NCBI RefSeq assembly: GCF_001677475.2
Contig: NZ_CP015229.1
From: Escherichia coli
GTDB taxonomy: Bacteria > Pseudomonadota > Gammaproteobacteria > Enterobacterales > Enterobacteriaceae
DNA length: 64,000 nt
Strand: one strand, 5' to 3'
Shown here piece by piece: positions 22,801-24,388 of the stretch (position 1 is the stretch's first letter; each line of letters begins with the position of its first letter). The position numbers are program-made.

Positions 22801-24388
22801 CGCATGATGGGTATCAAAACCGATATCGTGGTTAGCGGCTCTTTGAGCAAAGAAGAGTTGCGCACTATCGTGCACGAATCACGCTCACAAATTTCCCGTC
22901 GCAATCAGGATATGCTGCTGTCGGTGCTCGATCTGGAAAAAATGACCGTTGATGACATCATGGTGCCGCGCAGTGAAATTATCGGTATTGATATCAACGA
23001 TGACTGGAAATCGATTCTGCGCCAGCTCTCCCACTCACCTCACGGGCGCATCGTGCTCTACCGTGATTCGCTGGACGACGCCATCAGTATGCTGCGTGTG
23101 CGTGAAGCCTGGCGGTTGATGTCGGAGAAAAAAGAGTTCACCAAAGAAACCATGCTACGCGCCGCGGACGAGATCTATTTTGTCCCGGAAGGTACGCCGC
23201 TCAGCACGCAGTTGGTGAAGTTTCAGCGCAACAAAAAGAAAGTCGGCCTGGTCGTCAACGAGTATGGAGACATTCAGGGGCTGGTGACGGTTGAAGATAT
23301 TCTGGAAGAGATTGTCGGCGATTTCACTACCTCGATGTCGCCAACACTTGCCGAAGAGGTCACGCCGCAAAACGACGGTTCGGTGATTATCGATGGCACC
23401 GCCAACGTGCGGGAAATTAACAAAGCCTTTAACTGGCATCTACCGGAAGATGATGCCCGCACGGTTAATGGCGTCATTCTTGAGGCACTGGAAGAGATCC
23501 CTGTCGCAGGCACCCGCGTGCGTATTGGCGAGTACGATATTGATATTCTCGACGTACAGGACAATATGATTAAACAGGTAAAAGTCTTTCCTGTGAAACC
23601 GCTGCGCGAGAGTGTGGCGGAGTAATACAGTGGCGAACTCCGGTTCGCCTTTCTTATCGCCGCCTTTTAGGATTCCATCAATTCCTTCCTTTTACTTCAC
23701 AATGCAATAATGACATTTCAATTATTCGGAAAGGATATCAATGTTATGTCAGAAGATTATGTAATTGAGTGGGATAAGGATTTTGAAGACGATCTCAACG
23801 TTGTCGCCAGCGTGTTTTTCCCCCACAAGCCAACGCTATGGTCTGGTATCGTCTCTCAACTTGCCACCACTCCTGAAATCTTTGAAGACGAAGATGAGGA
23901 CGAATATGGATTGCAAGACGTTCTCGATTGTAGCGGTGGCGATTTAGGAAATGACGCATTGGGGCAAGCATTTTTACAAATCCTACGCATCGAAGGATTA
24001 ATCCATATTGTTGACTGGAAAGGCGAAGAAGAAGATGGTGAGCTGGCTAATTTTGCTGCTGACCGCTTCTACGATCTGTGTAAAGACCTGACAGCCTCAG
24101 AGACATTACGAAGTCTGCTTATCGACATAACTCAGGAAGATGAAATTGCAGATGCCTGCGAAGATGGTGATCGTTACCTTGACGAGATCTTTGGACGCAT
24201 TCAGGACCAGCTTAATGAACGGGGCTACCAAATTTTCAATCTGAATGAAGGAACAGATAGTTATAACGTGGCCGTTCTGCCAATGAACGAATATAAAAAA
24301 ATAGATGATTTCAACACGCCGTGGCTGGAAGTACAGGATTTTTTAAGCTAAAAAAATGGCCGACTTCGCGTCGGCCATCAGATATTTA

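What the first reader, a model, noticed from the sequence alone, without database searches (positions are those of the whole stretch)
23626..24385. Acidic 201-213 aa ORF between yfjD and grpE, not part of the K-12 core as I remember it
As far as I recall, in E. coli K-12 yfjD is followed directly by convergent grpE. Here an extra ORF (23710-24351; likelier start 23746) sits between the yfjD terminator hairpin (about 23631-23660) and the grpE terminator, and appears lower in GC than its neighbours. The product is very acidic (EDEDEDEY), soluble and unlike any housekeeping protein I know. Small acidic orphans are typical of immunity proteins of polymorphic toxins or phage-defence accessory proteins, but no toxin partner is present.
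Basis: partly seen in the sequence, partly recalled or inferred. Interest (0 to 1): 0.5.

Follow-up and report, generated by a model that had tools for sequence, protein, structure and literature searches.

The report
Acidic DUF6630 accessory gene beside grpE
The extra ORF between yfjD and grpE is a real, already catalogued gene for a very acidic cytoplasmic protein of unknown function (DUF6630) that most E. coli, including K-12, lack and that related enterobacteria have exchanged as a small cassette.

Summary
Window 23746-24351 (+) encodes a 201-aa protein with pI 4.05 (50 Asp/Glu against 12 Lys/Arg). Its GC is 43.6%, against 50-52% for the neighbouring genes. It lies between the yfjD terminator and a terminator shared with grpE.

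It matches Pfam DUF6630 (E 6e-12). The identical protein is already in NCBI as 'cytoplasmic protein / DUF6630 family protein'. Only 303 of 5,426 complete E. coli genomes carry it, always at this site. K-12 and Nissle have 54 unrelated bases there, and their GrpE is one residue longer.

The same site holds the gene in Salmonella, E. whittamii, Superficieibacter and Entomohabitans, in several very divergent allele classes. Window versus E24377A gives dS 0.75 in the gene but 0.05-0.08 in the flanks. E24377A versus Salmonella Senftenberg gives dS 0.25 in the gene but 0.6-1.2 in the flanks. So the cassette has crossed genus boundaries. Selection is purifying (dN/dS about 0.13).

The AlphaFold model is confident (pLDDT 89.5) but matches no solved structure.

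The function is not established. My best guess, at about 0.35, is an acidic binding or inhibitor protein, possibly an orphan immunity protein. That rests on one homologue in a T6SS island and a weak fold resemblance to PoNi. There is no link to phages or to known defence systems.

The parts
23626..24397 (.). Polymorphic cassette. This segment is replaced by a 54-nt spacer in the K-12, DH1 and Nissle type of E. coli. It includes the last codons of grpE.
   Evidence: Alignment of the window, SCU-172, E24377A, DH1 and Nissle. In all 37 cassette-free rows sampled, the match spans 1097-1098 bp in the genome, against 1801 bp in the window.
23632..23659 (+). Intrinsic terminator of yfjD (7-bp stem, 5 G-C pairs, T-rich tail)
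   Evidence: Terminator scan. Conserved in the cassette-bearing genomes.
23696..23725 (+). Weak sigma-70-like promoter candidate (TTCACA, 18-nt spacer, AATTAT; 9 of 12 matches)
   Evidence: Consensus scan only, and the region yields no more sites than shuffled sequence. The -10 hexamer is poorly conserved in the E24377A allele. Treat as unproven.
23731..23735 (+). Shine-Dalgarno-like AAGGA, 10 nt before the ATG at 23746
   Evidence: Read from the sequence. GGAAAGGA is also present upstream of the Salmonella orthologue.
23746..24351 (+). CDS for a 201-aa DUF6630 family protein. It is very acidic, has a conserved DWxGE motif (D90-E94) and a GxDxY motif (D171), and is predicted to be a compact alpha/beta protein.
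24355..24379 (-). Hairpin terminator between the convergent DUF6630 gene and grpE (10-bp stem). The T-run is on the grpE side and an A-run is on the other side, so it probably works in both directions.
   Evidence: Terminator scan. The sub-threshold Rfam isrD match here (23.4 bits against a 37-bit gathering score) is just this hairpin.
24386..24976 (-). grpE, in the 196-aa form ending AKAK*. This form goes with the cassette. The cassette-free K-12 type is 197 aa and ends AKAKA*.

Best explanation
Identity (shown, about 0.95). Window 23746-24351 is a functional protein-coding accessory gene of the DUF6630 (PF20335) family. It sits in a 770-bp cassette between the highly conserved genes yfjD and grpE. 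The cassette is an old resident of this site in Escherichia, Salmonella and related genera. It exists as several deeply diverged alleles and has been moved between species and genera, most likely by homologous recombination through the conserved flanks. In the main E. coli lineage, including K-12, it has been replaced by a 54-nt spacer.

Mechanism (inferred, about 0.35). The product is a soluble, compact, extremely acidic cytoplasmic protein that acts by binding a basic partner protein and neutralising or sequestering it. The most specific version is an orphan immunity-like inhibitor of a nucleic-acid-targeting toxin delivered by competitors through T6SS, Rhs or CDI. The invariant core (DWxGE plus GxDxY) would hold the fold, and the variable helices would carry partner specificity.

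Only the gene, its family, its fold confidence, its distribution and its evolutionary pattern are shown here. Partner binding and any toxin are inference.
For: Gene and family:
- Pfam DUF6630, E 6e-12.
- PGAP annotates it as 'DUF6630 family protein' at the same site in 303 of 5,426 genomes.
- The identical protein is in NCBI.

A functional protein:
- dN/dS is 0.11-0.15 in every allele comparison, and 0.13-0.47 in 25-codon windows.
- The AF2 model has pLDDT 89.5 and pTM 0.87.

An old, exchanged cassette:
- The gene sits in the same position in Salmonella (two classes in hand, 80% and 59% identical to the window protein, plus a third class from the protein search), E. whittamii, Superficieibacter (67%) and Entomohabitans (41%). 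YfjD stays 88-100% identical across these.
- Window versus E24377A: dS 0.75 in the gene, 0.05-0.08 in the flanks.
- E24377A versus Salmonella Senftenberg: dS 0.25 in the gene, 0.6-1.2 in the flanks.

The inhibitor or immunity idea:
- pI 4.05, net charge about -38, and most family members are similarly acidic.
- Patchy presence, and frequent truncated or frameshifted copies.
- Homologue P0041 lies at the end of a VgrG - DUF4123 - effector - small-gene array next to an IS3 element.
- The family is spread sporadically over many phyla, mostly as solitary genes.
Against: - No toxin, VgrG, PAAR, Rhs or CdiA gene lies near the gene in the window or in the other contexts examined. These are yfjD|grpE in four genera, recR|htpG in two Budvicia species, and the loci in L007, L018, L010, L022 and the Streptomyces plasmid.
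- The T6SS context is a single, frameshift-ridden metagenome contig. There the DUF6630 gene is the fourth or later gene after the effector.
- The protein does not match the Pfam PoNi models, even at E <= 10.
- Three invariant acidic residues across members below 20% identity are more typical of a ligand, metal or catalytic site than of a co-evolving immunity interface.
- There is no sign of diversifying selection, since pN/pS never exceeds 0.47.
Confidence: 0.35

Rival explanations
1. A dispensable cytoplasmic protein whose conserved acidic motif (DWxGE plus GxDxY) forms a metal-, ligand- or substrate-binding site. On this reading it has a physiological role of its own and is not a toxin inhibitor. 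Its patchy distribution would simply reflect loss where that role is not needed.
For: D90, E94 and D171 are invariant, and W91, G93 and F149 nearly so, across members that share under 25% identity. Nearly all contexts are solitary genes among housekeeping genes. The gene has long residence at one core site, and selection is purifying throughout.
Against: No structural or sequence similarity to any enzyme or ligand-binding family was found. The protein evolves about ten times faster than its neighbours at non-synonymous sites. It has been lost from about 94% of E. coli genomes.
Confidence: 0.3
2. A factor linked to the heat-shock chaperone network, such as a regulator, client or adaptor of DnaK/GrpE or HtpG.
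For: Two of the independent chromosomal sites lie directly beside chaperone genes. One is grpE in Escherichia, Salmonella and related genera. The other is immediately upstream of htpG, on the same strand, in two Budvicia species.
Against: In the window the gene is convergent with grpE and has its own terminators, so it is not co-transcribed. By inspection, no sigma-32-like promoter lies upstream. Other family contexts have no chaperone genes. Highly conserved flanks such as grpE, htpG and recR are also simply good anchors for homologous recombination, which explains the adjacency without any function. The association was noticed after the fact.
Confidence: 0.1
3. A DNA-mimic type of inhibitor, for example anti-restriction or an inhibitor of a host DNA-binding protein, or an accessory part of an anti-phage system.
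For: Extreme acidity, with 25% Asp+Glu and pI 4.05, shared by most relatives. Small size and low GC.
Against: There were no matches in PADLOC or PHROGs, none in 50,697 phage genomes, and none in IMG/VR viral contigs. The only two 'plasmid' hits are Salmonella chromosome-like records that carry the same ffh-yfjD-X-grpE locus. No neighbouring restriction or defence genes were seen.
Confidence: 0.08
4. A decaying relic with no present function in this genome.
For: It is missing from most E. coli, and many truncated or frameshifted variants of 113-187 and 232 aa are in the databases.
Against: The window copy is intact. Its reading frame is conserved across genera with dN/dS of about 0.13. The start context and terminator are intact. 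The fold prediction is confident.
Confidence: 0.05

Closest known systems
DUF6630 family proteins (Pfam PF20335), e.g. RefSeq WP_001287920.1 (E. coli SCU-172), WP_001287917.1 (E. coli E24377A) and WP_001287928.1 (Salmonella Senftenberg)
   Same: Same family, same length (201 aa), same chromosomal site, and 80-98.5% identity. The identical sequence is in NCBI as ANO90383.1.
   Different: Nothing material. The window carries the rarer 'alpha' allele. Six of the 303 carrier genomes are 95-99% identical to it at the DNA level. The common 'beta' allele, in 293 genomes, is about 84% identical in DNA and about 82% in protein.
PoNi (DUF1910/DUF1911; Pfam PoNi_N and PoNi_C), the immunity proteins of PoNe PD-(D/E)xK DNase toxins (Jana et al. 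2019, PMC6688995)
   Different: There is no Pfam PoNi match at any threshold and no adjacent PoNe-like gene in the window. About 90% of PoNe genes are immediately followed by a PoNi gene, whereas DUF6630 genes are nearly always solitary.
Orphan immunity genes of polymorphic toxin systems in general (from my own knowledge of the SUKH/SMI1-KNR4 and Imm families)
   Same: Small, acidic, cytoplasmic proteins with patchy strain-level presence, sporadic distribution across phyla, multiple divergent alleles, frequent decay, and tandem-domain fusions (P0071 has two DUF6630 domains).
   Different: This gene sits at a fixed core-genome site for a long evolutionary time. It has an invariant acidic motif, shows no diversifying selection, and is not found in arrays in most contexts.
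Acidic DNA-mimic inhibitors (Ocr, ArdA, colicin DNase immunity proteins Im7/Im9; from my own knowledge)
   Same: Comparable size and extreme negative charge.
   Different: No sequence or fold similarity was detected. The gene is not phage- or plasmid-borne.

Membership tests
DUF6630 (Pfam PF20335) | Significant match to the family HMM | tested here: met
   i-Evalue 6e-12, residues 37-187 against model positions 20-145 of 158. All relatives found carry a precomputed PF20335 hit.
DUF6630 (Pfam PF20335) | Shared fold with other family members | tested here: met
DUF6630 (Pfam PF20335) | Conserved DWxGE and GxDxY motifs (my own description from the alignments, not Pfam's definition) | tested here: met
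   D90, E94 and D171 are invariant, and W91, G93 and F149 are at least 90% conserved, in 21 diverse members. The same residues stand out in a second set.
Polymorphic-toxin immunity protein | Encoded next to, usually just downstream of, a cognate toxin gene | tested here: not met
   The window neighbours are yfjD and grpE. The same holds in all Escherichia, Salmonella, Superficieibacter and Entomohabitans loci. Only homologue P0041 lies in a VgrG/DUF4123 island, several genes after the effector. An orphan immunity gene would fail this test too, so it lowers membership but does not exclude the function.
Polymorphic-toxin immunity protein | Binds and neutralises a specific toxin domain | not testable with these tools
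   Needs co-expression rescue, pull-down or competition assays.
PoNi (PF08928/PF08929) | Match to the DUF1911/DUF1910 profiles | tested here: not met
   The Pfam scan lists only DUF6630, plus two noise hits at E > 0.3.
PoNi (PF08928/PF08929) | Shared fold with the PoNi C-terminal domain | tested here: inconclusive
Known anti-phage defence or phage protein families | Match to PADLOC or PHROGs models, or presence in phage genomes | tested here: not met
   No hits in PADLOC or PHROGs at E <= 1, and none for ten distant relatives apart from one noise hit. No tblastn hit in 50,697 phage records and none in IMG/VR.
E. coli core genome | Present in K-12 and most strains at this position | tested here: not met
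   303 of 5,426 complete genomes carry it. DH1 (K-12) and Nissle have a 54-nt spacer instead.

The most novel reading that the evidence does not exclude
DUF6630 is an unrecognised family of immunity-like inhibitors, distantly related in fold to PoNi, that neutralise basic nuclease-type effectors. On this reading the yfjD-grpE junction of Escherichia and Salmonella is a long-lived 'immunity allele' locus. It would hold several ancient alleles plus an empty state, shuffled between genera by recombination through the conserved flanks, and it would shape which competitors a strain can resist.
Probability: 0.2. Interest if true: 0.55.

Novelty: already known. Interest (0 to 1): 0.3.

Why it matters
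As a gene it is ordinary. It is already annotated in RefSeq and belongs to a Pfam family, so the scan has not uncovered a new element.

Two things give it some value. First, no paper in the searched library mentions the family. Yet it folds confidently, is under purifying selection, carries an invariant acidic motif, and is spread over many bacterial phyla and at least one archaeon. That makes it a clean target for functional work.

Second, the locus is a neat example of a small cassette without an integrase that sits between two highly conserved genes. It persists as deeply diverged alleles and has crossed between Escherichia and Salmonella. If the immunity reading were right, this would be a chromosomal site that sets a strain's resistance in interbacterial competition.

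Tried and rejected
- **Protein family libraries.** NCBIfam, PADLOC and PHROGs scans of the protein gave nothing at E <= 1. Ten distant relatives gave only noise.
- **Mobile elements.** Phage genomes, IMG/VR viral contigs and plasmids gave no true hit. The two 'plasmid' hits are Salmonella chromosome-like records.
- **Fused domains.** Pfam found nothing beyond DUF6630 in the longer relatives P0071, P0074, P0075, P0078 and P0080. The L7/L12-C-like look of the P0074/P0075 tails is my reading by eye only.
- **SUKH neighbour in L007.** By eye, the small split ORF next to the L007 homologue looked like SUKH/SMI1-KNR4. Pfam gave no match even at E <= 10, so I dropped it.
- **Large neighbours.** The large unannotated proteins next to three homologues (752, 857 and 788 aa) are not related to each other.
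- **T6SS island in L008.** Pfam and NCBIfam could name only DUF4123. The PD-(D/E)xK reading of its effector is unconfirmed.
- **Diversifying selection.** Sliding pN/pS stayed between 0.13 and 0.47.
- **Rfam.** The isrD match at the terminator is below threshold.
- **Wider scans.** The genome and metagenome scans returned almost only the same yfjD-grpE locus, plus Budvicia and one Enterobacteriaceae bacterium (B14) locus in a different context. The profile searches reached few distant members.
- **Literature.** Searches for DUF6630, PF20335, STM2680 and yfjD+grpE+intergenic returned no papers.

Full report
**What is there.** Between the stop codon of yfjD (23625) and the stop codon of the convergent grpE (24386-24388) the window holds a 760-bp segment with one long ORF, 23710-24351 on the + strand. 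The true start is the ATG at 23746:
- RefSeq annotates the 201-aa form in other genomes.
- Every homologue starts at the equivalent MSEDYVIEWD.
- An AAGGA motif lies 10 nt upstream.

The yfjD terminator hairpin is at 23632-23649. A 10-bp-stem hairpin at 24355-24379 separates the ORF from grpE. One weak sigma-70-like site lies at 23696-23725. It is no better than shuffled sequence gives and is poorly conserved, so the promoter is unproven.

The gene has 43.6% GC and 41.6% GC3. The five neighbouring genes have 50-52% GC and 51-62% GC3. The product has pI 4.05, with 50 Asp+Glu and 12 Lys+Arg.

**Is it in K-12, and how common is it?** The segment is found in 303 of 5,426 complete E. coli genomes. 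It is always single-copy, always chromosomal and always between yfjD and grpE. A query spanning both flanks matches 5,425 genomes. In all but those 303 it matches as two pieces that lie 1097-1098 bp apart instead of 1801 bp.

In DH1 (K-12) and Nissle 1917, yfjD and grpE are separated by 54 nt that carry their own hairpin. Those 54 nt show no clear similarity to the cassette ends. GrpE there ends AKAKA* (197 aa), rather than AKAK* (196 aa) as in the window. The polymorphic segment runs from 23626 to about 24397.

**What it is.** The protein matches Pfam PF20335 (DUF6630) at E 6e-12, and PGAP names it 'DUF6630 family protein'. The identical sequence is already in NCBI (ANO90383.1 and others, 'cytoplasmic protein [Escherichia coli]'). 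Its 90%-identity cluster also holds E. albertii and E. fergusonii entries.
- NCBIfam, PADLOC and PHROGs have no model for it.
- No paper in the searchable library mentions DUF6630 or PF20335.
- A profile search of 1.84 billion representative proteins found only 44 clusters at E <= 0.001. This enterobacterial branch is therefore small and divergent within the wider family.

**Structure.** An AlphaFold2 model built from 15 orthologues is confident (mean pLDDT 89.5, pTM 0.87). It has an N-terminal helical part followed by a small alpha/beta core: strand 86-90, helices, and a beta-hairpin at 161-179.
- Foldseek against AFDB50 returns only DUF6630 proteins. They come from Enterobacterales, Vibrio, Bacteroidota, Bacillota, Actinomycetota and an archaeon.
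- PoNi proteins are the immunity proteins of PoNe DNase toxins (PMC6688995).

Across 21 diverse members, D90, E94 and D171 are invariant, and W91, G93 and F149 nearly so. These form a DWxGE motif at the end of strand 1 and a GxDxY motif in the hairpin. Most members are strongly acidic.

**Evolution of the locus.** This is the most informative result. The gene occupies the same yfjD|grpE position in:
- Salmonella enterica;
- E. whittamii;
- Superficieibacter electus;
- Entomohabitans teleogrylli.

The encoded proteins fall to 59-80%, 83%, 67% and 41% identity to the window protein. YfjD stays 88-100% identical.

The alleles do not follow the species tree:

| Comparison | Protein identity | dS in the gene | dS in the flanks |
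|---|---|---|---|
| Window 'alpha' allele vs common E. coli 'beta' allele (E24377A) | 82% | 0.75 | 0.05-0.08 |
| E24377A 'beta' allele vs Salmonella Senftenberg | 94.5% | 0.25 | 1.2 (yfjD), 0.6 (grpE) |
| Salmonella Senftenberg vs second Salmonella class | 61% | saturated | 0.06-0.16 |

The second Salmonella class is closer to the Superficieibacter protein (76%) than to the Senftenberg allele.

Sliding-window identity places the exchanged block at about 23600-24430. That covers the terminators, the gene and the grpE stop region. Alpha and beta are identical through the last 25 codons, which points to a recombination breakpoint inside the gene.

dN/dS is 0.11-0.15 overall and 0.13-0.47 in 25-codon windows, never above 1. 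The alleles are therefore old, diverged lineages under purifying selection, not products of a detectable arms race.

Truncated and frameshifted copies are common in the databases. The 196-aa GrpE end that accompanies the cassette is shared with Salmonella. This fits the K-12 state being derived.

My reading is that the cassette is an old, dispensable resident of this site. It was lost in the main E. coli lineage. In a minority of strains it was either retained or re-imported by homologous recombination through the very conserved flanks. I did not resolve retention against re-import.

**Contexts elsewhere.**
- In two Budvicia species a 22-24% identical homologue lies between recR and htpG.
- In a Serratia-like genome it lies between the gsiA-like ABC transporter and DUF924/moeA.
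- In Enterobacteriaceae bacterium B14 it lies between a LysR-type gene and a DMSO-reductase-like cluster, judging by the sequence starts.
- In Enterovibrio it sits among small unrelated genes.
- In a Streptomyces plasmid and another contig it is solitary.

Only one homologue has a toxin-related context. P0041 (34% identical) lies at the end of an array of VgrG C-terminus, DUF4123 adaptor, a frameshifted effector, a duplicated pair of small genes and one more small gene, next to an IS3 element. No homologue was found in phage genomes, viral contigs or true plasmids.

**How it most likely works.** What is shown is a real, constrained, well-folded, extremely acidic cytoplasmic protein with a conserved acidic motif. 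It is dispensable and patchily distributed. What follows is inference.

The explanation I favour (about 0.35) is that it binds and neutralises a basic partner protein. The most specific form is an orphan immunity-like inhibitor of a nuclease-type effector. The arguments for this are the charge, the patchy and allele-rich distribution, the decay pattern, the one T6SS island and the weak PoNi resemblance. The arguments against are the absence of toxins in nearly all contexts, the failed PoNi profile test, the invariant acidic residues and the lack of diversifying selection.

The rivals are:
- A stand-alone ligand- or metal-binding or enzymatic role centred on D90, E94 and D171 (about 0.3).
- A chaperone-network role, suggested by adjacency to grpE and htpG (about 0.1). 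That adjacency is equally explained by conserved genes being good recombination anchors.
- A DNA-mimic or defence role, for which every database test was negative (about 0.08).
- A functionless relic, contradicted by the selection signal (about 0.05).

**Comparison with what is known, and verdict.** The gene is a member of DUF6630 on every test I could apply. It is not a demonstrable member of PoNi, of any other named immunity family, or of any defence family. It is already catalogued, so it is not a new element.

Interest is modest at 0.3. The function of a widespread, well-folded family remains unknown. The allele series at a core-gene junction, exchanged between genera, is a tidy population-genetic case. 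Nothing here is categorically new.

Noticed in passing
window 29864-30226 and about 30400-49000: The tmRNA gene (ssrA, tag ANDENYALAA) is followed by lambdoid prophage-like DNA. Tail genes gpJ, tape measure and tail fibre match E. coli prophages at about 95% identity. No complete E. coli genome covers 80% of the query.
   Followed up: partly
window 8000-23600: Core DNA is at most 98.8% identical to any of 5,426 complete E. coli genomes, so the source lineage is poorly represented in that collection. It could be a rare E. coli lineage or a Shigella-type genome. I did not resolve this.
   Followed up: partly
window 24386-24397 (grpE 3' end): GrpE is 196 aa (ending AKAK*) wherever the cassette is present, including Salmonella and Superficieibacter. 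It is 197 aa (ending AKAKA*) in the cassette-free K-12 and Nissle type. So the cassette polymorphism reaches into the grpE coding end.
   Followed up: yes
L011 9015-10404 and L021 11006-12395 (Budvicia aquatica): Two tandem adenylate kinase (adk) genes lie downstream of htpG. The second copy is clearly diverged. B. diplopodorum (L020) shows only one.
   Followed up: no
L007 about 5600-5810 and 6880-7010: A repeat of about 130-200 nt, MITE-like, occurs twice near the DUF6630 homologue. The second copy splits a small ORF (70 + 135 aa) of unknown family.
   Followed up: partly
L008 1-6000: A T6SS auxiliary island: VgrG end, DUF4123 adaptor, a heavily frameshifted effector with a possible D...ExK nuclease motif, and a duplicated pair of unannotated small genes. 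None of the effector or putative immunity genes matches Pfam or NCBIfam.
   Followed up: partly
L012 374-2779 (protein P0071, 801 aa): A multidomain relative. It has an N-terminal region of about 330 aa with two internally similar segments, a proline-rich linker with PPPPSPYED repeats, and then two tandem DUF6630 domains. Pfam recognises only one DUF6630 domain.
   Followed up: partly
L005 5607-5809 (Salmonella, second allele class): The spacer between the DUF6630 gene and grpE is about 200 nt, with GC-rich palindromes that look REP-like. In the window and in Salmonella Senftenberg it is 34 nt.
   Followed up: no
L024 5001-5699 (Salmonella, protein P0009, 232 aa): A common Salmonella variant reads through into grpE on the opposite strand, giving 232 aa. 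This is apparently a frameshifted C-terminus. It is seen on 82 contigs, so a whole lineage may carry a damaged copy.
   Followed up: no
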